DNA from: Escherichia coli
Lineage (GTDB): Bacteria > Pseudomonadota > Gammaproteobacteria > Enterobacterales > Enterobacteriaceae
Reading direction: 5' to 3' (one strand)
Length of the DNA: 64,000 bases
NCBI RefSeq assembly: GCF_046105845.1
Contig: NZ_CP151004.1
Positions within the stretch are counted from its first letter, which is position 1. Each line of letters begins with the position of its first letter. Below, one piece after another: positions 27,314-57,144 of this stretch. Below the pieces are notes generated by a model. It saw only the letters and a list, made by a program, of their open reading frames with translations, was not told where the DNA came from and searched no databases. Both the position numbers and the translations under genes were made by a program.

Positions 27314-27863
27314 TGAGATAATTTCCTGATGAACGAATTAACGAACATAGGCAGACACAAATAATGGCGTCTGCTTGTCAGAAAAACCGGGGATTTCCCG
27401 GTTTCCTTTTCCGCAGAAAAGGAAATACCTTTATGTAAGAAAGTACACCGCCACCTAATATATCCAGTGTCTGTAGCCACTCATCAGGTGGTTGGGCGCG
27501 GGATTATATTTTTATTTATGGGTAAAAATTTAGCTTTTTGTGCAAGTTATTAAATAGATACTTAAGTTATATTTCTTACTCTGCGGGCAGTGAATAATTC
27601 ATTATTAAGAGTGAATAATAATGACCTGTCTTTAATTAATCGCTATTGGGAATACGTCGAAGTAGGTATATACACCAGGATAAACCAATATATTTTTTAT
27701 GGATATTCATTTTCCTTCATCAGACTGTGAATTGCAGGGATATCGAACTTGCACGACTCATCGCAACACTCAAACAGATTTATGAATTTCGTTCATAACC
27801 CCTGACAAATCCTGCCGTCTAATCGAGCTTTTCCCTTTACGTTATGCTTCTCATGAACGATAA

Positions 27864-30730
<2,867 letters not shown>

Positions 30731-34733: not shown

Positions 34734-34835
34734 ATGAAAGAGAATAAAGTACAGCAAATCAGTCATAAACTGATTAATATCGTTGTTTTTATCGCAATTG
34801 TAGAATACGCCTATTTATTTCTCCATTTCTATTAA
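34734..34835 (+). CDS. ykgR: Small membrane protein YkgR (33 aa)
   Basis: ORF MKENKVQQISHKLINIVVFIAIVEYAYLFLHFY; matches recalled YkgR; hydrophobic C-terminal half. Confidence 0.7.
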   Translation: MKENKVQQISHKLINIVVFIAIVEYAYLFLHFY

Positions 34836-35157
34836 TAACGGCAGTAAACTGTTCACTTCAGTGATATTTAAAATATGCATCCTCTCCCTTTTTGTAAGTA
34901 ATTATTATATCCGTGGGAGAGGAATACACGCTGTCAGGTAATCAATCATACTGCGATAAATCATCGGCCAGTAAAGTGGAGATAACCTCCATTCTCGAAA
35001 AAGCGAAACTATCATCAATCACTCATCCAGGCGTTTATGGGAGCGTCGCCAACGGCTGCTAACAATGCCAGACTTCCCCGTTGGGGAAATTCCACATACC
35101 ACAAATAGTCACAGGGATTGGGTGTTGAAATGATCCGGATGAGCATGTATCTTTATG

Positions 35158-35450: not shown

Positions 35451-35590
35451 TGAAAGTCCTTAACTCTCTGCGTACCGCAAAAGAACGCCATCCAGACTGT
35501 CAGATTGTGAAGCGAAAAGGACGGCTATATGTGATTTGTAAATCTAATCCACGTTTTAAGGCCGTTCAGGGTCGTAAGAAAAAACGTTGA
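35450..35590 (+). CDS. ykgO: Ribosomal protein L36 paralog
   Basis: 46 aa [46 protein letters not shown]; start overlaps ykgM stop (TGATG). Confidence 0.9.
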
Positions 35591-35996
35591 TTCAAAATTC
35601 GACGGATTAATGATATTTGTCTGATTAATAATCAGACCTGATTAATGTTGGTGTATTTATTACACCAGCATTAATTTTCTTGGGGATGTATCTTCCTGTT
35701 CATTTAAGGTCAACTGCCTGACGTTTCTCTCCGAATATTCCATTATATTAATGTTGACTTGTTAACCAGGTGCGCCCTGTATGCTGGCATCAACTCTCTT
35801 TTAGACTGAACACGCCACTCAGTTTCCTCCCTTTGCGACGCAGCCTGCATTTACACTCAAACGGTTAAGATGATAAATGTGGTAAATCTGTTGGTACTGA
35901 CATAAAAACGTTTACGTCACAGGAACGGCCTGATCCACCGGTAACCCCATCGCCGACGTTCGAGTGCCAGTTAGAGTAACGCGCACAGATGACTGA

Positions 35997-43777: not shown

Positions 43778-44107
43778 ATGAGCAATCTGAATCCATGCAT
43801 GACGTGTGGTGCCTGTTGTGCATTTTTCCGCGTCTCTTTTTACTGGGCCGAAGCCGACGATGCTGGCGGTACCATTCCCGCCAGGCTCACTGAACAAATA
43901 TCCCCTTTTCACCGATGCATGAGCGGTACCAATCAGAAAAACCCCCGATGTATTGCCCTTGCAGGAACACCGGGCAAAAATGCCTGCTGCACGATATATA
44001 AAAATCGATCGTCCACGTGCAGAGAATTCGCCATGTCTGGTGAGAACGGAGTCGTCAATGAGGCTTGCAATCGTGCAAGAGCTAAATACGGGCTGACACC
44101 GTTATAA
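43778..44107 (+). CDS. ykgJ: Cys-rich putative Fe-S/zinc-binding protein YkgJ
   Basis: 109 aa; CxxCGxCC and further Cys motifs. Confidence 0.8.
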
Positions 44108-44355: not shown

Positions 44356-44970
44356 TTATCTGTTTGAGCCTAAAGGGATCTCAGGGTCTGGCTCATGAGT
44401 AATTCTGTTTCGTAAATCTCTGCGAATAATTTCAATGGACCAGAACCAGACTAAATGTCCAAAAATTTCAGAAACATTCTCATACCACGGGAGATCAAAC
44501 AGAGGTGGCGTCAGTCCCATGAGAGGGAATGAAATCATATGAACAAAAAGTTGGGCTAAAGCACCTGCCAGTAAGCCCTGCCAGAGTTTAATTTTTGGAA
44601 ATACTTCAGCGACCACACAGTAACCAACGGCAAACACTATCGAAAAGATAATGTGCGTAACGCCAACCCAGTTAAAGACATGCCCGGCAAAGGTATAAAC
44701 AGCCGCATTGGGATCTGTCAGCCCTAGCCAGTCTCGAAGAAAAATATACGGAGGATTGAGAAAATTACGGGAGCAATCAATTTGCCCAGCAGCCCTGATT
44801 AATGATTCCGGGCCACACGCTGCATTAAACATATCCACCGGGCTACGTGGCGGCAATGGAACTTCAGCCCCCCACTTCACAAATGCGGAAACAACGCCAG
44901 CAATCAGCCCAATGAATGCAGCAAGACCATAACGTCTGCGGTTCGGTGGAGTTTGTTCAAATATATTCAT
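44356..44970 (-). CDS. yagU: Inner-membrane protein YagU (DUF1440)
   Basis: 204 aa, multi-TM; matches recalled YagU. Confidence 0.8.
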
Positions 44971-45376
44971 ATCTACCCTGCTTGTACCATTATGTTATAC
45001 ACCTCTTCAGGAGTATTCATAAAACAAGACAAATGTAAAGAACTGTATTGTTTTGTATAACAAAATAGTTTCCTAATCGCCAATGAATATAAGCACCATC
45101 ATTTCTCCCTATTTTTATGTTAGAAGTGACAAAGATTTGTAGGGTGATGCAGAGCTGACAATCACAGGTTTCCTTATCGGTTTTTGCATCGCACAACTAA
45201 AGCAATAAACGAGCTCCCGTCATCGGCGAATATGAATTAATTAGCCGGGCTCATAGCTGCATTCGCGTTTTAAGAATAATCCTCCTGCTCTCACCGACTA
45301 TGCTTAACATTTAAAAAAGCATCAGCACTCTCGCAACGCTCTCTTATTTTCCCCTTTAGAATACCGGAGGCCTGGT

Positions 45377-46066
45377 ATGAGCAACCAAGGCGAATACCCC
45401 GAAGATAATCGGGTTGGGAAGCACGAGCCGCACGATTTTAGTTTGACCCGTCGCGATCTGATTAAAGTCAGCGCCGCAACGGCGGCGACCGCCGTGGTTT
45501 ATCCTCATTCTACGCTTGCAGCAAGCGTTCCGGCAGCTACACCCGCGCCCGAGATAATGCCCCTGACACTTAAGGTGAACGGCAAAACCGAGCAGTTGGA
45601 CGTTGATACCCGAACCACGCTACTGGACGCTTTGCGTGAAAATCTGCATCTGATCGGTACCAAGAAAGGTTGCGATCACGGGCAGTGCGGAGCCTGTACC
45701 GTGCTGGTCAATGGTCGCAGGCTTAATGCCTGCCTGACGCTTGCAGTCATGCATCAGGGGGCCGAGATCACCACCATTGAAGGCCTGGGTTCACCAGAGA
45801 ATCTTCACCCCATGCAGGCGGCCTTTATCAAGCATGATGGCTTCCAGTGCGGCTACTGCACCTCCGGGCAAATTTGCTCATCAGTAGCGGTGCTAAAAGA
45901 GATTCAGGACGGCATTCCCAGTCACGTCACGGTCGATTTGGTTTCCCCTCCAGAAAGAACTGCCGATGAGATCCGTGAACGTATGAGCGGCAACATCTGT
46001 CGCTGTGGTGCATACGCTAACATCCTTGCCGCCATTGAAGATGCTGCGGGGGAGATAAAATCATGA
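45377..46066 (+). CDS. paoA: Periplasmic aldehyde oxidoreductase 2Fe-2S subunit PaoA (Tat signal)
   Basis: 229 aa; twin-arginine motif TRRDLIKV; 2Fe-2S Cys motifs [10 protein letters not shown] and CGYC...CRCG. Confidence 0.92.
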
Positions 46067-47019
46067 AGGCGTTTACCTATGAACGAGTGAACACCCCGGC
46101 CGAGGCGGCACTTAGCGCTCAGCGCGTACCCGGCGCAAAATTTATCGCTGGCGGGACCAATCTGCTGGACCTGATGAAGCTGGAAATTGAAACGCCCACC
46201 CACCTTATCGATGTGAACGGCCTCGGGCTCGATAAGATTGAAGTGACCGACGCGGGTGGGCTGCGCATCGGCGCACTGGTACGGAACACCGACCTGGCGG
46301 CTCACGAGCGCGTGCGTCGTGATTACGCGGTACTCTCCCGCGCCCTGCTCGCTGGCGCGTCTGGTCAGTTACGTAATCAGGCAACCACCGCAGGTAATCT
46401 GCTCCAGCGCACGCGCTGCCCCTATTTTTACGACACCAATCAGCCCTGCAATAAGCGCCTGCCCGGGAGCGGCTGCGCGGCACTTGAAGGCTTTAGCCGT
46501 CAGCACGCGGTGGTAGGCGTAAGCGAAGCCTGCATTGCCACCCATCCGAGCGATATGGCGGTCGCAATGCGGTTGCTGGATGCGGTAGTGGAAACCATCA
46601 CGCCGGAGGGAAAGACTCGCAGTATCACACTGGCTGATTTTTATCACCCACCGGGGAAAACGCCGCACATTGAAACCGCCCTGCTTCCCGGTGAGCTTAT
46701 CGTTGCGGTGACGTTACCTCCGCCGCTCGGCGGAAAACATATCTACCGCAAGGTGCGCGATCGCGCCTCCTACGCCTTTGCTCTGGTGTCGGTCGCGGCG
46801 ATTATCCAGCCAGACGGCAGCGGGCGCGTCGCACTGGGCGGAGTAGCTCATAAGCCCTGGCGCATTGAGGCTGCGGATGCTCAGCTATCCCAGGGGGCGC
46901 AGGCCGTGTATGACGCGCTGTTCGCCAGCGCCCATCCCACCGCTGAAAACACCTTTAAACTCCTGTTGGCGAAGCGAACGCTTGCCTCCGTACTGGCTGA
47001 AGCGAGGGCACAGGCATGA
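46063..47019 (+). CDS. paoB: Aldehyde oxidoreductase FAD-binding subunit PaoB
   Basis: 318 aa; CO-dehydrogenase flavoprotein-like; 4-bp overlap with paoA. Confidence 0.9.
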
Positions 47020-49214
47020 AATTTGATAAACCCGCAGGGGAAAACCCGATCGATCAGCTGAAGGTTGTCGGTCGTCCCCATGACCGCATCGACGGACCGC
47101 TGAAAACTACTGGCACGGCACGCTACGCCTACGAATGGTATGAAGAAGCTCCCAACGCCGCCTATGGTTATATCGTCGGTTCCGCCATTGCCAAAGGATC
47201 CCTCACCGCCCTCGATACGGACGCCGCGCAAAAAGCGCCGGGCGTACTGGCTGTCATTACCGCCAGTAACGCCGGGGCACTCGGCAAAGGCGACAAAAAC
47301 ACCGCCAGGCTGTTAGGCGGCCCCACTATTGAGCACTATCATCAGGCCATTGCGCTGGTAGTGGCTGAGACCTTCGAACAGGCGCGAGCGGCGGCCTCGC
47401 TGGTGCAGGCGCACTATCGCCGTAATAAAGGAGCTTACTCCCTGGCGGACGAGAAACAGGCCGTCAGTCAGCCGCCGGAAGACACGCCCGATAAAAATGT
47501 TGGTGACTTTGACGGGGCTTTCACCTCCGCTGCGGTGAAGATTGATGCTACCTACACGACCCCGGACCAGAGCCATATGGCGATGGAGCCGCATGCCTCG
47601 ATGGCCGTCTGGGATGGAAATAAGCTTACTCTCTGGACCTCAAATCAGATGATTGACTGGTGCCGCACCGATCTGGCAAAAACGCTGAAAGTGCCCGTGG
47701 AGAATGTGCGTATTATCTCCCCGTATATCGGCGGAGGGTTTGGCGGCAAGCTGTTCCTGAGAAGCGATGCGCTGCTGGCGGCCCTCGCCGCCCGTGCGGT
47801 GAAACGTCCGGTTAAAGTGATGCTCCCCCGCCCCACTATTCCCAATAACACCACGCACCGCCCCGCCACCCTTCAGCACTTGCGTATCGGTACTGACCAG
47901 AGCGGGAAAATCACCGCTATCTCACATGAAAGCTGGTCCGGAAACCTGCCCGGCGGCACGCCGGAAACGGCGGTACAGCAAAGCGAATTACTCTACGCCG
48001 GAGTGAGTCGTCATACCGGCCTGCGGCTCGCCACGCTTGATTTGCCGGAAGGGAACGCCATGCGTGCGCCCGGCGAAGCCCCCGGTCTGATGGCGCTCGA
48101 AATCGCGATCGATGAACTGGCGGAAAAAGCGGGCATCGATCCCGTCGAGTTTCGCATCCTGAATGACACTCAGGTTGACCCCGCCGACCCGACGCGCCGC
48201 TTCTCTCGCCGTCAGCTTATCGAGTGCTTGCGCACCGGAGCGGATAAATTTGGCTGGAAGCAGCGCAACGCCACACCCGGACAGGTGCGCGACGGGGAGT
48301 GGCTAGTCGGCCACGGCGTCGCAGCGGGCTTTCGCAATAATCTGCTGGAAAAATCGGGTGCGCGGGTTCATCTCGAACAAAACGGCACCGTTACCGTGGA
48401 AACGGACATGACCGATATTGGCACTGGCAGCTACACCATTCTGGCCCAGACGGCAGCGGAAATGCTTGGCGTACCGCTGGAGCAGGTTGCGGTTCACCTC
48501 GGCGATTCCAGTTTCCCGGTTTCTGCGGGGTCTGGTGGACAATGGGGCGCGAATACCTCCACCTCCGGCGTTTACGCCGCCTGTGTGAAGCTTCGCGAAA
48601 TGATTGCCTCGGCAGTCGGGTTTGATCCTGAGCAGTCGCAGTTTGCCGACGGCAAGATTACCAACGGTACCCGAAGCGCCATGCTACATGAGGCCACCGC
48701 AGGCGGCAGACTGACAGCGGAAGAAAGCATTGAATTCGGAACACTGAGCAAGGAGTACCAGCAGTCGACCTTTGCCGGGCATTTTGTGGAGGTCGGCGTG
48801 CATAGCGCGACGGGAGAAGTTCGGGTCCGGCGTATGCTCGCTGTGTGTGCTGCAGGACGCATCCTGAATCCGAAAACTGCACGCAGCCAGGTCATTGGCG
48901 CAATGACTATGGGCATGGGCGCGGCACTGATGGAGGAGCTGGCGGTGGATAACCGTTTGGGCTACTTCGTTAATCACGATATGGCGGGGTATGAGGTTCC
49001 GGTCCATGCGGATATCCCAAAACAGGAGGTGATTTTCCTGGATGATACCGACCCCATATCCTCCCCGATGAAGGCCAAAGGTGTCGGTGAGCTGGGCCTG
49101 TGCGGCGTGAGCGCGGCTATCGCCAACGCGGTGTATAACGCCACCGGTATTCGGGTACGGGATTATCCCATCACTCTGGATAAGCTGCTCGATAAGCTGC
49201 CGGATGTGGTTTAA
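47016..49214 (+). CDS. paoC: Aldehyde oxidoreductase molybdopterin-binding subunit PaoC
   Basis: 732 aa xanthine-dehydrogenase-family Mo subunit; 4-bp overlap with paoB. Confidence 0.9.
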
Positions 49215-49223
49215 GGAGGAACA

Positions 49224-50180
49224 ATGTCATACCCACTTTTTGACAAAGACGAGCACTGGCATAAGCCAGAGCAGGCGTTTCTCACCGATGACCACCAGGC
49301 CATTCTGCGCTTCGCCGTAGAGGCGCTAATGTCCGGTAAAGGAGCGGTGCTGGTGACGCTGGTGGAAATACGCGGCGGCGCGGCGCGCCCGCTCGGGGCG
49401 CAGATGGTGGTGCGCGAAGATGGCCGTTACTGCGGTTTTGTCTCTGGCGGCTGCGTGGAGGCCGCTGCCGCTTTTGAAGCGCTGGAGGTGATGGGCTCAG
49501 GCCGCGATCGCGAAGTTCGCTATGGCGAAGGTTCACCGTGGTTTGACATCGTTCTGCCCTGCGGCGGTGGGATCACGCTGACGCTCCATAAACTACGCTC
49601 GGCACAGCCTCTGCTCGCCGTGCTGAACCGCCTGGAACAGAGAAAACCGGCGGGTCTGCGCTACGATCCGCAAGCTCAATCGCTGGTGTGCCTGCCCACG
49701 CAAACCCGGACGGGCTGGAATCTCAATGGCTTTGAGGTGGGGTTCAGGCCATGCGTCAGGCTGATGATTTACGGACGTTCTCTTGAGGCGCAGGCAACCG
49801 CGAGTCTTGCAGCAGCCACAGGCTATGACAGCCATATCTTCGATCTTTTTCCGGCCTCAGCCAGCGCTCAGATCGATACCGATACGGCGGTCATTTTGCT
49901 GTGCCATGATCTCAACCGGGAGCTGCCAGTGTTGCAGGCCGCGCGAGAAGCAAAACCCTTTTATCTCGGCGCATTGGGCAGCTATCGAACCCACACGTTA
50001 CGTCTGCAAAAGCTCCACGAGCTGGGATGGTCCAGGGAGGAAACAACGCAAATCCGGGCACCCGTCGGGATATTCCCCAAAGCCCGGGATGCGCATACTC
50101 TGGCACTCTCCGTGCTGGCAGAAGTCGCCTCTGTACGTCTCCATCAGGAGGAGGATTCATGCCTGCCCCCGTCGTCCTGA
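49224..50180 (+). CDS. paoD: XdhC-like molybdenum cofactor insertion chaperone PaoD
   Basis: 318 aa; follows paoC. Confidence 0.88.
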   Translation: MSYPLFDKDEHWHKPEQAFLTDDHQAILRFAVEALMSGKGAVLVTLVEIRGGAARPLGAQMVVREDGRYCGFVSGGCVEAAAAFEALEVMGSGRDREVRYGEGSPWFDIVLPCGGGITLTLHKLRSAQPLLAVLNRLEQRKPAGLRYDPQAQSLVCLPTQTRTGWNLNGFEVGFRPCVRLMIYGRSLEAQATASLAAATGYDSHIFDLFPASASAQIDTDTAVILLCHDLNRELPVLQAAREAKPFYLGALGSYRTHTLRLQKLHELGWSREETTQIRAPVGIFPKARDAHTLALSVLAEVASVRLHQEEDSCLPPSS

Positions 50181-50240
50181 TCCTTGCGGCCGGGCGTGGA
50201 GAGCGCTTTCTCGCCTCCGGGGGAAATACCCATAAATTAA
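50160..50240 (+). pseudogene. N-terminal fragment of a MobA/MocA-like molybdopterin nucleotidyltransferase
   Basis: MPAPVVLILAAGRGERFLASGGNTHKL has the nucleotidyltransferase P-loop (L-x-x-AAG-x-G-x-R); homology ends after about 27 codons; ATG overlaps paoD 3' end. Confidence 0.4.
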
Positions 50241-50359
50241 GAGAAAAATCTGCAGTAGTCGTTTTAGAAAATCACCTAAATCGTTTAAAAGAGCGCCCAA
50301 CCCATAGTGGGCGCTCATCGCCTTGTGTGACTTATTCAGCAACGCGCACCCTCGCCGGA

Positions 50360-51553
50360 CTAAAGCGCACCGGCCTTCTGGCGTGCGGTAACAAAGGTCA
50401 GTACGCCAGCGCAAAGGAGCAGCACGCTACTCATAGCAAACGTGCTCTGCCAGCCAAGGCGGTCAAATACGATGCCTCCTGCTGTTGATCCAAGGGCGAT
50501 GGCGAGCTGAATCACCGCGACCATGAGCCCGCCTCCGGCTTCGGCGTTGTCAGGCAACGTACGCGCAATCCATGTCCACCATCCGGTTGGCGCGGCGGTG
50601 GCCAGCATGCCCCAGAGTCCTAACAGCAGCGAGACCGTCCAGACGTGATGCCCGGTCAGCATCAGACCGATAGCAATGACGGCCATCAGTCCGGGTATGG
50701 CCATCAGCGTGGGGTAGAATTTTCTGTTGAGAAATGCCGAAACAACCAGCGTGCCAATAAAACCGGCCACGCCGATAATCAGCAAAATCAACGACAAGCC
50801 TAAGGAATTAACCCGTGTCACCGACTCCAGAAACGGGCGCACATAGGTGAATAGTGCAAACTGCCCCATGAAAAACAGGCAGCAGGCTATCATGCCGACC
50901 ACAACCATGCGGCGGCTAAATAAGCGGAATACCGCGCCACATGAAGTGTGGCTTTTATTCGCATCCATGCTTGGCAGGCTGATGCACTGCCAGATAAAGG
51001 CGACAACCGCGATGGGCACCAGGCACAAGAAAGCGCCTCGCCATCCGACCGTAGCCCCCAGATAGCTTCCCAGCGGTGCGGCCACGACCGTCGCCAGCGC
51101 ATTACCGGCGTTGAAAATTGCCAGCGCACGCGTGACCTGATGCTGCGGCACCAGACGAATCGCCGTTGCCGCTGACATCGACCAGAATCCGCCAATAGCC
51201 ACACCAATCATCGCACGACCGACCATATACATCAGATAACTGGAAGCCAGCGCAATAATAAGCCCCGATACGGCCATCAGAACCGTCATCCCCAGCAGCA
51301 GGAACTTACGATTCATCTTTCCAGCTAGCGTTGAAAGCGTCAGGCTGGTCAGAACCGCCAGCGCGCCGGAGATAGCAATCCCCTGCCCTGCCAGCCCCTC
51401 CGTCACGCCTAAATCGCGGGTAATCGGCGTGAGCAGGCTGACGGGCATAAATTCAGAAGCAATCAGCACAAACACGCACAGGGTCATGGCAAAAATACCG
51501 CCCCAGTATGCGCGCTGATGATGAGGTGATAGTGTTTGGCTTAGTGTCGACAT
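50360..51553 (-). CDS. MFS transporter (12 TM, drug/metabolite efflux-like)
   Basis: 397-aa hydrophobic ORF with MFS-like repeated TM pattern. Confidence 0.8.
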   Translation of the reverse strand: MSTLSQTLSPHHQRAYWGGIFAMTLCVFVLIASEFMPVSLLTPITRDLGVTEGLAGQGIAISGALAVLTSLTLSTLAGKMNRKFLLLGMTVLMAVSGLIIALASSYLMYMVGRAMIGVAIGGFWSMSAATAIRLVPQHQVTRALAIFNAGNALATVVAAPLGSYLGATVGWRGAFLCLVPIAVVAFIWQCISLPSMDANKSHTSCGAVFRLFSRRMVVVGMIACCLFFMGQFALFTYVRPFLESVTRVNSLGLSLILLIIGVAGFIGTLVVSAFLNRKFYPTLMAIPGLMAVIAIGLMLTGHHVWTVSLLLGLWGMLATAAPTGWWTWIARTLPDNAEAGGGLMVAVIQLAIALGSTAGGIVFDRLGWQSTFAMSSVLLLCAGVLTFVTARQKAGAL

Positions 51554-51628
51554 AGTGAAATTTCACAAAGATCAGGATAAAAGCCACCAGCCTATGGCCG
51601 GTGGCTTTGCATCAATTCAGGAGAGGTT

Positions 51629-52786
51629 TTATTTCAGTTTGGTCTGGAAAAATTGTTCGAACTTCGCGAAAGGTATTTTTCCGGCCACGTTATCGTACAG
51701 GTCCACGTGATTTGCCCCTGGTACCACCACCAACTCTTTGTCTTTACTGCCAACCGCCTTGTAAGCATCTTCAGCAAAATAGCGTGAATGTGCTTTCTCA
51801 CCGGTCACAATCAGCGTCGGAATGGTGATTTCACTGGCGTAGCTCAACAGCGGCATATTCATAAATGACAGCGGCATCGTTGCCGTCCACGCCCCGGTAG
51901 AGTTAACGGAACGTTCGTGGAAGCCGCGCGGCATGCGATAGTAGTCAAAGAACTCTTTCAGTACCGGATGAGGATTTGCCGGCAGCGTTTCTGGCAGAAT
52001 GCGCTCGCCAGCACTGACCTTGCCGTTGCTATCGACATTAATATCATGACCACCGTGAGCGAACGTTCCGCTCTGCGCATCCTGCCAGCGCTGTTCATTC
52101 AGATATTGCAGAACGGCACGACGGTCGGCGGTAGAATAACGGTCTTTGCCATCCCCCACACCATGACCCATCGCCCGGCTCATGTCATACATCACGCTGG
52201 TAGCTACCGCTTTAACGCGGGTATCCATCGCCACGTCGTTCAGCGCCATGCCGCCCCAGCCACAAATACCGAGCAGCCCGATACGGTTGCGATCTACCTC
52301 TTTTTGCAGCCCTAAGAAATCCACCGCCGCGCTGAAATCTTCAGTGTTGATATCCGGTGAGGCGACGTTTCGCGGATAGCCGCCGCTTTCCCCGGTGTAA
52401 GAAGGATCGAACGCCAGGGTAACAAACCCTCGTTCCGCCAGCGTCTGCGCATACAGGCCGCTGGATTGCTCTTTCACCGCGCCAAATGGCCCACTGACCG
52501 CAATCGCCGCCAGCTTGCGATCGCCACGGTCTTTAGGCAGGTAAAGATCGCCCACTAAGGTGATGCCATATCGGTTCGGGAACGAGACTTTACGGTGATC
52601 GACTTTCTGGCTCTCGGCGAACGTTTTATCCCATTTATCTGTCATGGACACAGGGGCATTAGGATTGGTTGAATCAGCATAACTCATTGTCGTGACCCCA
52701 CTTAATGATGCGAAAAGCAGCATGGTCGGCATCGCGGTTTTTAGCGTTCGGGTGAAGGCTTTCATAAAAATCCCCATAAAAAACAA
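51629..52786 (-). CDS. Secreted alpha/beta hydrolase, dienelactone-hydrolase-like (GxCxG)
   Basis: 385 aa; signal peptide; GICGWGG nucleophile elbow; paralog of 31954-32874. Confidence 0.7.
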   Translation of the reverse strand: MFFMGIFMKAFTRTLKTAMPTMLLFASLSGVTTMSYADSTNPNAPVSMTDKWDKTFAESQKVDHRKVSFPNRYGITLVGDLYLPKDRGDRKLAAIAVSGPFGAVKEQSSGLYAQTLAERGFVTLAFDPSYTGESGGYPRNVASPDINTEDFSAAVDFLGLQKEVDRNRIGLLGICGWGGMALNDVAMDTRVKAVATSVMYDMSRAMGHGVGDGKDRYSTADRRAVLQYLNEQRWQDAQSGTFAHGGHDINVDSNGKVSAGERILPETLPANPHPVLKEFFDYYRMPRGFHERSVNSTGAWTATMPLSFMNMPLLSYASEITIPTLIVTGEKAHSRYFAEDAYKAVGSKDKELVVVPGANHVDLYDNVAGKIPFAKFEQFFQTKLK

Positions 52787-52951
52787 CAGAGAGATACAGG
52801 TTTCCGACGGACAACGCTGCGGTGCTTTACTTTGATGGGGTCATTATAGTGAGCAGAATTAGTGCTGATTAGGGGGCGATTAATGCTAAGATTAATACCA
52901 TATTGTTATAAATTAATGCGGAGATTGCCGGCATGAAGGGGGGATGTTTCA

Positions 52952-53836
52952 ATGGCGAAAAGGGAGAACTACAACGAGCTGTACCTGTTTATGCAGGTGG
53001 TGCGGGAAGGCAGCTTTACCGCAGCGGCTCAGCGGCTGGGTCTTGCTCAGTCAGGAGTCAGCCGTTCTGTTCGCGAGCTTGAAGAAAGGCTCGGCGTCCA
53101 GCTGCTAGTGCGCACCACGCGTAAACTGTCGCTGACACAAGCAGGCGAGCAGCTCTACCAGAAGACGGCATCTGGATTTGAAATGTTAGATCTTGGGCTT
53201 GCCACGCTGGCGCACTATCGAGAGACGCCCTCCGGCACGGTGCGTATCAATGCCAGCCAGCACGCGATTGATAAATGCCTGCTGCCAAAGCTGGCGGTAT
53301 TTAAACAGCGATATCCTGATATCCGGCTTGAACTGATAAATGAGAGCCGGTTCGTCGATATCATCGAGGAAAGATTCGATGCAGGTGTCCGCCTGGGGCC
53401 TGAAGTCGGCCAGGGTATGGTCGCGGTACGCATCACGCCCGATATGGAGATGGCAATTGTGGGGACTCCGGAACATTTTCGTCGCTATGGTTTTCCGCAA
53501 ACCCCGGCGGATTTAAAGGCGCATCCCTGTATCGCCTATCAGTTTGCCGACGGCAGCGTATACCAGTGGGAACTCAATCAGGATGATAAAAAAATCACTC
53601 ATCGCCCTGAAGGGCAATGGGCCTTATCCGACAGCTATATGGAAGCAGAAGCCGCCCGGCTGGGCCTCGGATTGGCCTATGTTCCTGTTGAACTGGTCGC
53701 GGATGATTTAGAACACGGTAAGCTTATCAGGGTGTTGCAGCGTTACAGCCTGCGAATGGAGGGATTGTTTCTCTATTACCCTCATCGCAACGTCTCCCCC
53801 GCCCTGCGGATGGTCATTGATACATTGAAAATCTGA
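52952..53836 (+). CDS. LysR-family transcriptional regulator
   Basis: 294 aa; LysR HTH (LYLFMQVVREGSFTAAAQRLGLAQSGVSRSVRELEERLG); divergent from hydrolase gene. Confidence 0.8.
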   Translation: MAKRENYNELYLFMQVVREGSFTAAAQRLGLAQSGVSRSVRELEERLGVQLLVRTTRKLSLTQAGEQLYQKTASGFEMLDLGLATLAHYRETPSGTVRINASQHAIDKCLLPKLAVFKQRYPDIRLELINESRFVDIIEERFDAGVRLGPEVGQGMVAVRITPDMEMAIVGTPEHFRRYGFPQTPADLKAHPCIAYQFADGSVYQWELNQDDKKITHRPEGQWALSDSYMEAEAARLGLGLAYVPVELVADDLEHGKLIRVLQRYSLRMEGLFLYYPHRNVSPALRMVIDTLKI

Positions 53837-54061
53837 ACGTTAATAACGACCGACTCTTCACTGTGCAACATTGTGTCAGGTAGTCCCTCTGCGTTCAATT
53901 CCAGGGTCTGCTTTGAGCGAGAAAGAGGGGACTATCCAGCAATGGAGATCACCCAAAAGAAAAAACCACCTGGCTCCCTCGACAACCTTCATCCAGGCAT
54001 TTAGCCTCAATCAACATTTTTATATCTGTCAGGTTACTTCATGATGAAAACTGATCATTAT

Positions 54062-54315
54062 CGTTGTTTTTGTTGCAATAGTAGAATACGCGTATTTATT
54101 CCTCCATCTCTATTAATAACGGCAATAAACTGTTCACTTCACTGATATTTAAAATATGTATCCTTTTCAAGCTGTTCAGCGGCGTAAGAAAAAGTATTAA
54201 TTATGAATTCGACGATTTAACCATATCTGTCTGATTGGTAATCATCCGTGATTAATGTTGGTCTATTGATTACGCCAGCATTAACCGCTTAGGGATGTAT
54301 TCTTCCTGTTGATAT
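54062..54315 (+). repeat. Degenerate paralogous copy of the ykgR 3' half fused to the ykgO 3' end plus downstream sequence
   Basis: About 90% identity over about 100 bp to 34776-34885 and about 75-80% over about 145 bp to 35561-35705, by eye; ykgM/ykgO and the Zur box are missing from this copy. Confidence 0.7.
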
Positions 54316-54607
54316 CCCCCCCTCGAAAAAGAGAGAAAATAAAACTGTGTCCAATATTACTCTACCACTCCAGACCGAAGCATCGGTGGGATTAGCAGGA
54401 CGACTGGTACAGAAGGATGGTATAGCGTCATTTGTCGGGCATTCCATTGCCATAATAATGACAATTTTGAATCAATAGACATGCTTCTTGATCATGTCTT
54501 AAAAATTAGACCATGAGCCTTACGAAGCATCATTTTTACTGACTGGTATTAACTTTGCTATCATATAAACTCTGTTCTTAAAAACGCGCCCAGAATTTAT
54601 ATGATTT

Positions 54608-54745
54608 TCATTGTTTTTCTGCCTGTAAAGAAATTTCTTTTTCAGTGCTGTCGATGGTTGAACCGACGGCAGTAATCGTTTTGGCGACGCTACTGAAGGA
54701 TATTAAAGACAGTGTAACCACAACAATTAAAGAATAGATAATATT
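54608..54745 (-). CDS. Hypothetical small hydrophobic protein (about 45 aa from MNIIYSLIVVVTLSLISF)
   Basis: ORF only; single predicted TM/signal-like segment; no homology recognised. Confidence 0.2.
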   Translation of the reverse strand, partial: NIIYSLIVVVTLSLISFSSVAKTITAVGSTIDSTEKEISLQAEKQ

Positions 54746-54963
54746 CATGCTAATTCTCCTGACAATTGAGAGGATGAGTTTTATATACAAAGGCATTAAA
54801 TATGAGTCATGTTTACTCCCTGTGAAAATAATCTTACTGTAATTAAACCTTCATCTCCTTCGGAGTGAGCAATGCATAATATAATGCATCTTGCTATTCA
54901 AAACAGTGGATATAAATTTTCCTCGCGACCTATTTAATAAAACGTGAATATAAAAGTTAGTCT

Positions 54964-55515
54964 TCAGTTTGCAGATGCAGTAGGTCTGATGGTAATTTCG
55001 GTTGTATCAACTGTTTCGGGAGATTCAATAATATGCCTTACAGCACGGGCAATATCCGCGGGTTGAAGTGCAACAGAACGGTAGGCGTCCATTGACTTCA
55101 TGGTTTCCACATGGGTAATGGTTGAAGCCAGTTCACTTTCTACAACCCCAGGATTTACGCAGGTCACACGGATTTTCGAGCTTTCCTGCCGTAAGCCATC
55201 CGAAATAGCCCGTACTGCAAATTTTGATGCACAATAGACTGCGCCTGTGGGCACAACAGAAAGGACACCAATAGAACCAAGATTGATTATCTGACCGGAA
55301 CCCTGTGCTTCCATCACCGGAAGTACAGCGCCAATTCCCCAAAGTACGCCTTTGATATTCACGTCAATAGTGAGTTCCCATTCATCTTGTTTTCCTGCTG
55401 CAAGCGGTGAAAGCGGCATAACGCCCGCATTATTGATAAGAACATCAACTCGCCCCCAGCTATCCAGCGCTGCTTGCACGAAATCGGCCATGGACTGCCG
55501 GTCTGTGACATCCAA
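54964..55515 (-). pseudogene. 5'-truncated short-chain dehydrogenase/reductase (SDR) gene
   Basis: Contains SDR catalytic region (NNAG, YCASK) but lacks the N-terminal Rossmann TGxxxGxG segment; reading frame terminates at the junction with the integrase fragment. Confidence 0.6.
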
Positions 55516-55686
55516 CTTGCATTTTCAGAAATGGGAGGCTGGGAGTCTATCGAAATGGTTCGTCGATATGCTCACCTCGCGCCTAATCACCTTACCGAAC
55601 ACGCACGGCAAATAGACTCAGTCCTGAACCCATCGGTCCCAAATTTGTCCCAGTCAAAAAATAAGAAAGGTACTAATGATGTGTAA
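55516..55686 (+). pseudogene. C-terminal fragment of a tyrosine (P4-type) integrase abutting thrW
   Basis: [20 protein letters not shown] is a typical integrase C-terminus including the catalytic Tyr region; ends 15 bp from the tRNA 3' end; no N-terminal or core domain present. Confidence 0.6.
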
Positions 55687-55700
55687 CTTATTGATTTAAA

Positions 55701-55776
55701 TGGTGCCGATAATAGGAGTCGAACCTACGACCTTCGCATTACGAATGCGCTGCTCTACCAACTGAGCTATATCGGC
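55701..55776 (-). tRNA. thrW: tRNA-Thr (anticodon CGU)
   Basis: 76-nt cloverleaf read on minus strand: GCCGATATAGCTCAGTTGGTAGAGCAGCGCATTCGTAATGCGAAGGTCGTAGGTTCGACTCCTATTATCGGCACCA; anticodon loop contains CGT. Confidence 0.93.
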
Positions 55777-55890: not shown

Positions 55891-57144
55891 TTACGCACGA
55901 ATGGTGTAATCACCAATGCCGATCCACTTGTAAGTGGTCAGTGCTTCCAGCCCCATTGGGCCACGCGCGTGGAGTTTTTGTGTGCTTACCGCCACTTCCG
56001 CACCCAGACCAAACTGGCCGCCGTCGGTAAAACGCGTAGAGGCGTTAACGTAAACAGCGGACGAATCCACTTCGTTAACAAAACGCTGGGCGTTGCGCAT
56101 ATCGCGGGTCAGGATCGCATCGGAGTGTTGTGTGCCGTGTTCACGAATATGGGTGATGGCATCGTCAAGATCGCTGACGATTTTGACGTTCAAATCTAAT
56201 GACAGAAACTCATCGTCATACTCTTCCGCTTTCACAGCCACCACCTTCGCGGGGCCTGTCTGCAACTGCGCCAGCGCAGCTGCATCTGCGTGTAATGTCA
56301 CGCCGCTTTCCGCCATTTGTTTGCTTAATGCGGGCAGGAAGCTGTCGGCGATGTTTTTATTCACCAGCAACGTTTCAACCGTATTACATGTGCTCGGACG
56401 CTGGGTTTTCGCGTTGACGATTACTTTCAGGGCTTCAGCGATCTCTGCACTTTCATCAACATAAATATGGCATACGCCTATACCACCTGTGATCACCGGG
56501 ATCGTCGACTGTTCGCGGCACAGTTTATGCAGGCCAGCGCCACCACGCGGGATCAGCATGTCGATGTATTTATCCATACGCAGCATTTCACTGACCAGCA
56601 CACGGTCAGGATTATCAATCGCCTGCACGGCACCCGCCGGTAAGCCGCAGGATTTCAGGGCGTCCTGAATCACCGCCACCGTTGCAGCGTTAGTGCGACA
56701 CGTTTCTTTGCCGCCGCGCAGGATCACCGCGTTACCTGTTTTCAGGCACAGCGAAGCGACATCTACCGTCACGTTCGGGCGCGCTTCATAAATCACGCCA
56801 ATCACCCCCAGCGGCACGCGACGGCGCTCCAGACGCAGACCACTGTCCAGTACGCCGCCATCGATTACCTGCCCCACCGGATCGGCGAGATTACACACCT
56901 GACGCACATCGTCGGCGATGTCTTTCAGCCGTGCGGGCGTCAGTGCCAGACGGTCAAGCATCGCTTCGCTAAGGCCATTGGCACGCGCGTCAGCAACATC
57001 CTGGGCGTTAGCGTTGAGGATGATTTCGCTTTGTGCTTCCAGTTCATCGGCGATTTTTTCCAGCACACGATTTTTTTCGCGGCTGGAGAGTTGCGCTAAT
57101 TTATACGAGGCTTGCTTTGCGGCAATGCCCATTTGTTCCAGCAT
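55891..57144 (-). CDS. proA: Gamma-glutamyl phosphate reductase ProA
   Basis: 417 aa; sequence matches recalled ProA. Confidence 0.93.

What the first reader, a model, noticed from the sequence alone, without database searches (positions are those of the whole stretch)
50160..50360. MocA/MobA-like gene start immediately after paoD that decays after about 27 codons
MPAPVVLILAAGRGERFLASGG carries the P-loop of molybdopterin nucleotidyltransferases and would be the logical fifth gene of a pao (molybdoenzyme) operon, but homology stops abruptly. A 9-bp stem hairpin (gagcgccca...tgggcgctc, about 50283-50309) follows, and then the convergent MFS gene. This suggests a deletion removed the rest of the cofactor-maturation gene when the downstream MFS/hydrolase/LysR block was joined.
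Basis: partly seen in the sequence, partly recalled or inferred. Interest (0 to 1): 0.4.

Follow-up and report, generated by a model that had tools for sequence, protein, structure and literature searches.

The report
Stub of lost pao cofactor gene
Right after paoD, E. coli keeps only the first 27 codons of a MocA-like cofactor-maturation gene that is intact in other enteric bacteria; it is a real but ordinary gene remnant at a junction with imported DNA.

Summary
An ATG at 50159 (not 50160) has a strong ribosome-binding site and overlaps the paoD stop by 22 nt. It opens 27 codons (50159-50239, MPAPVVLILAAGRGERFLASGGNTHKL) that match the start of an intact 177-197 aa MobA-like NTP transferase gene. 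That gene follows paoD directly in 26 other Enterobacterales pao loci.

The closest relatives are 89-92% identical in DNA across the pao operon, and their alignments stop at 50236-50239. None of 5,426 complete E. coli genomes holds the rest of the gene.

After the remnant comes a unique 95-nt AT-rich spacer. It holds the 9-bp hairpin, which is really at 50291-50316 and looks like the terminator of the convergent MFS gene. Next comes a portable LysR-hydrolase-MFS module.

The K-12 arrangement is derived. A 6.1-kb deletion between two CATAA repeats fused remnant codons 1-26 in frame to the tail of a LysR gene, producing the annotated 136-aa YagP. In O157:H7 the remnant has two amino-acid changes and a frameshift.

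Conclusion: a dead 5' stub at an illegitimate-recombination junction near the thrW integration hot spot. Whether the gene was ever intact in E. coli is unresolved. Low interest.

The parts
49224..50180 (+). paoD, the XdhC-family molybdenum cofactor insertion chaperone. It is the last intact gene of paoABCD.
   Evidence: Pfam XdhC_CoxI and XdhC_C. RefSeq annotation of near-identical genomes.
50146..50155 (+). Shine-Dalgarno-like AGGAGGAGGA, 4 nt upstream of the remnant's ATG and inside the end of paoD.
   Evidence: Read directly from the sequence. The same arrangement precedes the intact gene in Pluralibacter L003.
50159..50239 (+). 5' remnant (27 codons, MPAPVVLILAAGRGERFLASGGNTHKL) of a MocA/MobA-like NTP transferase gene, the lost fifth gene of the pao operon.
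   Evidence: Profile of 26 intact homologues: 37.8 bits. 70/81 nt identical to L003, and alignments end at 50239. Intact homologues are PF12804, E about 1e-26.
50240..50334 (.). Unique 95-nt spacer, 43% G+C, of unknown origin. It lies between the remnant and the portable MFS module.
   Evidence: No match in any fetched locus except E. coli genomes with the MFS arrangement. Module homology with L086, L089 and L090 stops at 50335-50363.
50278..50316 (-). Hairpin (9-bp stem 50291-50299/50308-50316, 8-nt loop) followed on the minus strand by TTTTAAACGATTT. Probably the intrinsic terminator of the MFS gene, 44 nt past its stop.
   Evidence: Perfect inverted repeat. The RNA fold keeps the stem on both strands. 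It was not called by the consensus terminator scan because only 4 T follow directly.
50360..51553 (-). Convergent MFS transporter gene. RefSeq calls a 375-aa version.
   Evidence: ORF list, annotation, homologues carry PF07690.
50335..53932 (.). Portable LysR / alpha-beta hydrolase / MFS module.
   Evidence: 89-91% nt identity to L086, L089 and L090, which lie in unrelated gene contexts.
45133..45198 (+). Left edge of the pao segment. It is an internal fragment of a Bcr/CflA-like MFS gene that is intact upstream of paoA in Enterobacter oligotrophicus.
   Evidence: 94% identity to L091 2977-3045; about 975 nt are deleted at a CACAACT microhomology. pao-negative E. coli diverge at 45135.
55701..55776 (-). 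thrW (tRNA-Thr CGT), an integration hot spot that bounds the variable region.
   Evidence: ARAGORN. Partial thrW copies lie next to the intact fifth gene in other genera.

Best explanation
Window 50159-50239 is the dead 5' stub of a fifth pao gene. In other Enterobacteriaceae that gene encodes a roughly 184-aa MobA-like nucleotidyltransferase, a distant paralogue of the cytidylyltransferase MocA. It is translationally coupled to paoD.

In every pao-positive E. coli the gene is cut after codon 27 by an illegitimate-recombination junction at 50239/50240. The junction joins it to a 95-nt spacer carrying the terminator-like hairpin of the convergent MFS gene, followed by a portable LysR-hydrolase-MFS module.

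All of this lies in the variable DNA that has accumulated between the pao operon and the thrW tRNA integration hot spot. I infer the stub has no function of its own. It keeps its ribosome-binding site and ATG only because these lie in or next to the end of paoD. E. coli PaoABC gets its molybdopterin cytosine dinucleotide from MocA (ygfJ), encoded elsewhere.

Shown here: the homology, the exact breakpoint, the absence of the rest of the gene in E. coli, lineage-specific decay, and the secondary K-12 deletion.

Inferred: that erosion at the thrW hot spot caused the loss, and that the intact relatives make the cytosine dinucleotide cofactor.
For: - Intact genes sit directly after paoD in 26 Enterobacterales loci, with no internal stops.
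- They are PF12804. Their best NCBIfam match is MocA/YgfJ.
- pao DNA is 89-92% identical to Pluralibacter, a Salmonella mobile-element-like contig, Enterobacter oligotrophicus and L093. All alignments end at 50236-50239.
- The remainder of the gene is absent from all 5,426 complete E. coli genomes.
- No Escherichia-named protein is among the best 120 homologues of the intact protein.
- Decay: O157:H7 has E15K, A19T and a 1-nt deletion that gives a stop. K-12 has R16C.
- K-12 type is a 6.1-kb deletion at CATAA microhomology from an O157-like arrangement.
- The spacer is unique and the module is portable.
- thrW context: in Leclercia the stop codon is 4 nt from a thrW 3' copy. E. oligotrophicus and L093/94 have thrW or att fragments downstream.
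- RefSeq annotates no gene between paoD and the MFS gene.
- MocA supplies PaoD with the cofactor (PMC3909100, PMC2997495).
Against: - No att site, IS end or repeat was found at 50239/50240, so the link to thrW-island turnover rests on context only.
- The origin of the 95-nt spacer is unknown.
- The enzymatic activity of the intact relatives is untested. They score well below the MocA equivalog cut-off (79-85 bits against 186) and are only 21% identical to E. coli MocA.
- The ORF stays open for 109 codons here and 136 codons in K-12, so translation of a junk peptide is not excluded.
Confidence: 0.9

Rival explanations
1. The gene was never intact in E. coli. The pao segment (about 45133-50239) was acquired horizontally as a fragment, and its right end happened to fall inside the fifth gene. 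The stub then marks the edge of imported DNA rather than a later deletion in place.
For: - The pao segment has about 59% G+C against 41-47% for the adjacent yagU region.
- It is 89-92% identical to pao loci in other genera, and in Salmonella it sits on a contig with TraI-like conjugation genes.
- Both ends of the segment are cut genes. The left end is an MFS gene fragment at 45133-45198.
- About 1,380 complete E. coli genomes lack pao and diverge at 45135.
- The species-representative scan returned no Escherichia pao locus. The best hit was Pluralibacter at 90%.
Against: - pao-negative genomes do not show a clean empty site. They carry 273 nt of unrelated filler, so they could equally be secondary losses.
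- The thrW-proximal position of pao is shared with Enterobacter oligotrophicus, Leclercia and L093. This fits vertical inheritance of the neighbourhood.
- The direction of transfer was not tested.
Confidence: 0.4
2. The stub is retained because it works. The ribosome-binding site and ATG that overlap the paoD stop would drive re-initiation that matters for paoD expression or makes a small protein. In K-12 the in-frame MocA-N/LysR-C chimera YagP could be a functional ligand-binding protein.
For: - A strong AGGAGG lies 4 nt from the ATG, with a 22-nt overlap with paoD.
- The ORF is open for 109 aa here and 136 aa in K-12, and yagP is kept as a CDS in NC_000913.3.
Against: - The part downstream of codon 26-27 differs completely between lineages: antisense of the MFS gene here, a LysR tail in K-12, and a stop after 26 codons (the 27th is TAA) in O157:H7.
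- The observed changes are non-synonymous or frameshifting.
- RefSeq does not call the ORF in genomes with the MFS arrangement.
- Most of the start region is constrained anyway by the paoD coding sequence.
Confidence: 0.04
3. The match is a chance resemblance to a common glycine-rich nucleotide-binding motif in a spurious ORF.
For: - Pfam finds nothing in the 109-aa ORF on its own.
- The motif LAAGxGxR is widespread in sugar-nucleotide transferases (GlmU and IspD hits).
Against: - The similarity is also at the DNA level and continues from paoD without a break: 86% over 81 nt, then 26%.
- Position, overlap with paoD and start context are the same as for the intact gene in relatives.
- Profile score is 37.8 bits.
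Confidence: 0.01

Closest known systems
MocA (YgfJ), CTP:molybdopterin cytidylyltransferase of E. coli
   Same: - The intact relatives of the stub share the MobA-like NTP transferase domain (PF12804).
- They share the N-terminal (L/T)AAGxxxR(F/M) nucleotide-binding signature.
- They are linked to an XdhC-family chaperone and to an enzyme that uses the cytosine dinucleotide cofactor.
- MocA/YgfJ (TIGR03310) is their best NCBIfam model for two of the three scanned; for L005 NF045665 scores marginally higher.
   Different: - Only 21% identity over 115 aa to E. coli MocA.
- They score 79-85 bits against a cut-off of 186, so they are a distinct paralogue, not the MocA equivalog.
- In E. coli only 27 codons are left, so no enzyme can be made.
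xdhC-mocA gene pairs, such as pucA-pucB of Bacillus subtilis and xdhC-mocA on plasmid pAO1 or in Oligotropha carboxidovorans (reviewed in PMC2997495)
   Same: A chaperone gene of the XdhC family is immediately followed by, or co-transcribed with, a MocA-like transferase gene. That is the arrangement found after paoD in 26 Enterobacterales loci and in several Rhizobium loci.
   Different: In E. coli the second gene of the pair is reduced to a stub. The literature therefore describes paoD as the last gene of the operon (PMC3909100).
Gene remnants at tRNA-linked genomic island borders, such as the thrW / CP4-6 region of E. coli K-12
   Same: The surrounding region is a mosaic of cut genes with microhomology deletion junctions, next to thrW:
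- an integrase fragment
- an SDR gene fragment
- a ykgR fragment
- the yagP fragment
   Different: No att repeat or integrase lies at the 50239/50240 junction itself.
YagP (b0282) of E. coli K-12, annotated as a putative LysR family substrate binding domain-containing protein
   Same: It shares the same first 26 codons, start codon and overlap with paoD.
   Different: YagP is a later in-frame fusion to the last 110 codons of a LysR gene. The window has the older junction to the MFS block instead.

Membership tests
MobA-like NTP transferase (Pfam PF12804, NTP_transf_3) | Domain match above the Pfam gathering score | tested here: not met
   The 109-aa E. coli ORF gives no Pfam hit because only 27 residues of the domain remain. 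The intact homologues score 91-94 bits against a cut-off of 27. The stub is derived from a member but is not itself a member.
MobA-like NTP transferase (Pfam PF12804, NTP_transf_3) | N-terminal glycine-rich nucleotide-binding signature, LAAGxGxR(F/M) | tested here: met
   The stub has VVLILAAGRGERF. It aligns to profile positions 1-27 of the family-specific profile at 37.8 bits.
MocA/YgfJ equivalog (NCBIfam TIGR03310, molybdenum cofactor cytidylyltransferase) | Score above the curated equivalog cut-off (186.45 bits) | tested here: not met
   Intact relatives score 78.9-84.7 bits and are 21% identical to E. coli MocA.
MocA/YgfJ equivalog (NCBIfam TIGR03310, molybdenum cofactor cytidylyltransferase) | CTP-specific transfer of CMP to Mo-molybdopterin | not testable with these tools
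   This needs an enzyme assay or complementation of a mocA mutant.
xdhC-mocA type operon pair | Transferase gene directly downstream of, and overlapping or abutting, the XdhC-family chaperone gene of a xanthine-oxidase-family enzyme operon | tested here: met
   The start lies from 21 nt before the end of the paoD stop codon to directly after it in most Enterobacterales loci (a few are listed at larger offsets). E. coli keeps the same 22-nt overlap.
Pseudogene / gene remnant | Homologous to only part of a gene that is intact in relatives, with the remainder absent from the genome | tested here: met
   Codons 1-27 only. The remainder gives no match in 5,426 E. coli genomes.
Pseudogene / gene remnant | Lineage-specific decay without conservation of the reading frame | tested here: met
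   O157:H7 has E15K, A19T and a 1-nt deletion. K-12 has R16C and a different fusion partner. Only four E. coli sequences were compared base by base.
Rho-independent terminator (for the hairpin) | G+C-rich stem-loop followed directly by a U-run on the transcribed strand | tested here: inconclusive
   The 9-bp stem has 7 G-C pairs. On the minus strand it is followed by UUUUAAACGAUUU. It fails the scan's rule of at least 5 T in 8. No U-run follows on the plus strand.

The most novel reading that the evidence does not exclude
Enterobacterial pao operons normally have five genes. The fifth would encode a dedicated MocA-like transferase ('PaoE'), only 21% identical to MocA, that feeds cofactor to PaoD. 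On this reading E. coli lost it, and the well-studied PaoD-MocA hand-off in E. coli is a secondary make-do. A further possibility is that the retained start site still drives translation of lineage-specific peptides, including the chimeric YagP of K-12, under pao operon control.
Probability: 0.3. Interest if true: 0.35.

Novelty: new member of a known kind. Interest (0 to 1): 0.25.

Why it matters
- It explains why paoD looks like the last gene of the E. coli operon, and why E. coli PaoABC depends on MocA encoded 2.7 Mb away.
- It points to an uncharacterised, operon-linked MocA paralogue in other Enterobacteriaceae. Its nucleotide specificity and partnership with PaoD could be tested.
- It corrects annotation. 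K-12 YagP is a fusion of two gene fragments. The 109-aa ORF in other strains is sometimes mislabelled as a LysR regulator because of the 26 shared residues.
- Beyond that, it is a routine example of gene erosion in a variable, island-prone region.

Tried and rejected
- Pfam scan of the 109-aa ORF: no hit, because too little of the domain is left.
- Consensus promoter/terminator scan of 49900-50700: nothing called.
- Rfam at permissive threshold on 49900-50700: nothing.
- Residual homology beyond codon 27. The stretch KSAVVVLENHL looked faintly like DKSVLEHVI of relatives. It was rejected: the DNA alignment and the profile both stop at codon 27, and the next 81 nt are 26% identical.
- Origin of the 95-nt spacer: blastn-short against all fetched loci and the window gave only chance 10-13-mers. 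It is not the 3' flank of the fifth gene in relatives, nor the flank of other copies of the MFS module.
- Plasmid collection search for the MFS junction: only E. coli records and matches of about 70% inside the gene.
- K-12 arrangement as the older state: rejected. K-12 lacks the TTA of codon 27 that the window shares with intact genes, and O157:H7 has the full-length LysR gene.
- Neumann et al. 2009 (PMC2755913) could not be read. The dependence of PaoABC on MocA is cited through PMC3909100 and PMC2997495 and my own recollection.
- No paper mentioning the remnant or the chimeric nature of yagP was found.
Full report
**Setting.** The window is E. coli chromosome. The gene order is:
- ykgJ (43778-44107, +)
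- yagU (44356-44970, -)
- paoABCD (45377-50180, +)
- an MFS transporter gene (50360-51553, -)
- an alpha/beta hydrolase gene (51629-52786, -)
- a LysR regulator gene (52952-53836, +)
- gene fragments
- thrW (55701-55776, -)
- proA (55891-57144, -)

**The observation.**
- AGGAGGAGGA lies at 50146-50155, 4 nt upstream of it.
- The frame overlaps the paoD stop (50178-50180) by 22 nt.
- It reads MPAPVVLILAAGRGERFLASGGNTHKL and then continues without a stop to 50488, giving 109 aa that run antisense through the 3' end of the MFS gene.

**What the 27 codons are.** I fetched pao loci from one genome per species and looked downstream of the paoD homologue.
- In 26 Enterobacterales loci an ORF of 177-197 aa, with no internal stop, begins at or just before the paoD stop. 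These include Pluralibacter, Leclercia, Enterobacter, Silvania, Siccibacter, Franconibacter, Citrobacter, Cedecea, Kosakonia, Atlantibacter, Pseudocitrobacter and others. The ORF starts M..PVVIILAAGRGERFLASGG.THKLDALL....
- Three of these proteins were scanned. All are MobA-like NTP transferases (PF12804, E about 1e-26).
- MocA/YgfJ (TIGR03310) is the best NCBIfam model for two of the three scanned (L005 scores marginally higher on NF045665). They score 79-85 bits against a curated cut-off of 186.
- The Pluralibacter protein is only 21% identical to E. coli MocA over 115 residues.
- The nearest solved structure by sequence is the mycobacterial MobA/MocA-related protein 2WE9.
- They are therefore a distinct paralogue in the MocA/MobA superfamily. 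Pairing of an xdhC-type chaperone gene with a mocA-type gene is known from other systems (PMC2997495).

**Where homology ends.**
- A profile of the 26 intact proteins aligns to the E. coli ORF over positions 1-27 (alignment reported to position 30) at 37.8 bits, and to K-12 YagP over positions 1-26.
- At the DNA level the window is 91.3% identical to Pluralibacter L003 from 45192 to 50239, and the alignment stops there.
- The same end point (50236-50239) is seen with Enterobacter asburiae, a Salmonella contig, Enterobacter oligotrophicus and an unnamed metagenome organism.
- Inside the remnant 70 of 81 bases match L003. In the next 81 bases 21 match, which is random.

**Is the rest of the gene anywhere in E. 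coli?** No.
- The 3' 471 nt of the Pluralibacter gene find nothing in 5,426 complete E. coli genomes at blastn sensitivity.
- The closest full-length proteins are 82-98% identical to the Pluralibacter one. Their N-termini match the E. coli remnant at up to 25 of 27 residues.
- They come from Pluralibacter, Salmonella enterica, Enterobacter oligotrophicus and unnamed sources. None of the best 120 is named Escherichia.

**What lies to the right of the junction.**
- The LysR-hydrolase-MFS triad (window about 50335-53932) recurs at 89-91% nucleotide identity in three unrelated gene contexts (L086, L089, L090). The similarity ends 0-25 nt after the MFS stop. It is a portable module.
- Between it and the remnant lies a 95-nt stretch (50240-50334, 43% G+C). 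It matches nothing else I fetched.
- This stretch holds the hairpin. On the minus strand the stem is followed by TTTTAAACGATTT, 44 nt past the MFS stop. That is the layout of an intrinsic terminator for the MFS gene. On the plus strand no U-run follows.
- The consensus scan did not call it, and Rfam has nothing there.

**States within E. coli.**
- Of 5,426 complete genomes, 3,598 match the paoD end.
- 912-913 of these continue into the MFS gene as in the window.
- The rest match only up to window 50235.
- About 1,380 further genomes have yagU but no pao. They diverge at 45135 and carry 273 nt of other sequence, an integrase fragment and a partial thrW copy in place of 45136-55515.
- O157:H7 has the MFS arrangement plus a full SDR gene and a full-length (299 aa) LysR gene further on.

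**The K-12 arrangement.** It is explained by one 6.1-kb deletion between CATAA in remnant codons 25-26 and CATAA in that LysR gene.
- The K-12 junction reads ACCCATAA|GTGTATCGG. The O157 LysR gene reads AATCATAAGTGTATCGG.
- The fusion is in frame. The annotated K-12 protein YagP (b0282, 136 aa) therefore consists of 26 residues of the MocA-like gene and 110 residues of a LysR C-terminus.
- The window keeps TTA (codon 27), which matches the intact genes, and K-12 does not. So the MFS junction is the older one.

**Decay.**
- O157:H7 has E15K, A19T and a 1-nt deletion that gives a stop in the 27th codon (26 sense codons).
- K-12 has R16C.
- RefSeq annotates no gene between paoD and the MFS gene in genomes with the MFS arrangement.
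- Some GenBank records name the 109-aa ORF a LysR-type regulator. This name evidently spread from YagP through the 26 shared residues.

**How the loss may have come about.** The stop codon of the intact gene faces the thrW integration hot spot in several genera.
- In Leclercia it lies 4 nt from a 46-nt copy of the thrW 3' end.
- In Enterobacter oligotrophicus, thrW and proA lie 8.6 kb downstream, beyond island remnants.
- In L093/L094 a P4-like island with an integrase and a thrW fragment follows.

The E. coli DNA between the stub and thrW is a mosaic of cut genes: a ykgR fragment, an SDR fragment, an integrase fragment, and yagP in other strains.

The left edge of the pao segment is also a cut gene. 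Window 45133-45198 is an internal piece of a Bcr/CflA-like MFS gene that is intact in E. oligotrophicus, with about 975 nt removed at a CACAACT microhomology.

The pao segment is about 59% G+C, against 41-47% for the adjacent yagU region. It is far more similar to pao of other genera than I would expect for the rest of the genome; that expectation is my own knowledge and was not measured here.

Two scenarios fit. Either an E. coli ancestor had the intact gene and lost its 3' part during turnover of thrW-linked DNA, or the pao segment was imported already cut. I could not separate them. No att site or IS end marks the junction, and pao-negative genomes do not show a clean empty site.

**Function.** I infer the stub has none.
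- E. coli PaoABC carries the cytosine dinucleotide form of the cofactor.
- MocA makes it and passes it to PaoD (PMC3909100, PMC2997495). From memory, Neumann et al. 2009 is the primary source, but I could not open it.
- The start site probably still allows some re-initiation after paoD. The products differ completely between lineages, which argues against a conserved role.

**Verdict.** The feature is an ordinary gene remnant at a recombination junction. I found no paper describing it. Its main value is an annotation fix for yagP and a pointer to an untested, operon-linked MocA paralogue in other Enterobacteriaceae.

Noticed in passing
L001 3260-3670 (K-12 type); NC_000913.3 297381-297791: K-12 yagP (b0282, annotated CDS, 136 aa) is an in-frame chimera. 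Codons 1-26 come from the MocA-like remnant and codons 27-136 from the C-terminus of a LysR gene that is full length in O157:H7. It was made by a 6.1-kb deletion at a CATAA microhomology.
   Followed up: yes
window 50159-50488: The 109-aa ORF that starts with the remnant and runs antisense into the MFS gene is named 'transcriptional regulator LysR-type' in a few GenBank records, although it has no LysR part. The name was apparently transferred from YagP through the 26 shared residues.
   Followed up: partly
window 45133-45198: The left edge of the pao segment is an internal fragment (about codons 45-68) of a Bcr/CflA-like MFS gene that is intact upstream of paoA in Enterobacter oligotrophicus (L091 2840-4036). 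About 975 nt are missing at a CACAACT microhomology. The pao segment is therefore flanked by cut genes on both sides.
   Followed up: partly
window 45135/45136 and 55515/55516; L084, L085: About 1,380 complete E. coli genomes have yagU but no pao. They replace window 45136-55515 with 273 nt of unrelated sequence, followed by the same integrase fragment and thrW att copy.
   Followed up: partly
window 50335-53932; L086, L089, L090: The LysR / alpha-beta hydrolase / MFS triad is a portable three-gene module. It is 89-91% identical in DNA in unrelated genomic contexts. A more distant copy (83%) lies 6.7 kb downstream of the intact fifth gene on a Salmonella contig that carries TraI-like genes (L095).
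   Followed up: partly
L004 6418-6470; L091 18151-18234; L093 17716-17753: In Leclercia the stop codon of the intact fifth pao gene lies 4 nt from a 46-nt copy of the thrW 3' end. In other genera thrW or thrW fragments follow within 9 kb. The pao operon end faces the thrW integration hot spot in several genera.
   Followed up: partly
window 54048-54313: Diverged partial duplicate (79-91%) of window 34767-34883 and 35554-35703, the ykgR region. It is annotated as a YkgR fragment in related genomes.
   Followed up: no
window 54964-55686: An SDR oxidoreductase gene (full length in O157:H7) is cut at 55516, where an integrase C-terminal fragment (55474-55686) begins next to thrW.
   Followed up: no
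window 27818-30464: Two aldo-keto reductase genes here are 84-85% identical to genes that lie between the pao operon and thrW in Enterobacter oligotrophicus and downstream of pao in Pluralibacter. This suggests a rearrangement or insertion that separated them from pao in E. coli.
   Followed up: no
L002 12600-14487 (strain 1190, beyond the window's equivalent region): A retron St85 reverse transcriptase and effector pair sits in the same thrW-proximal variable region in a close relative of the window strain.
   Followed up: no
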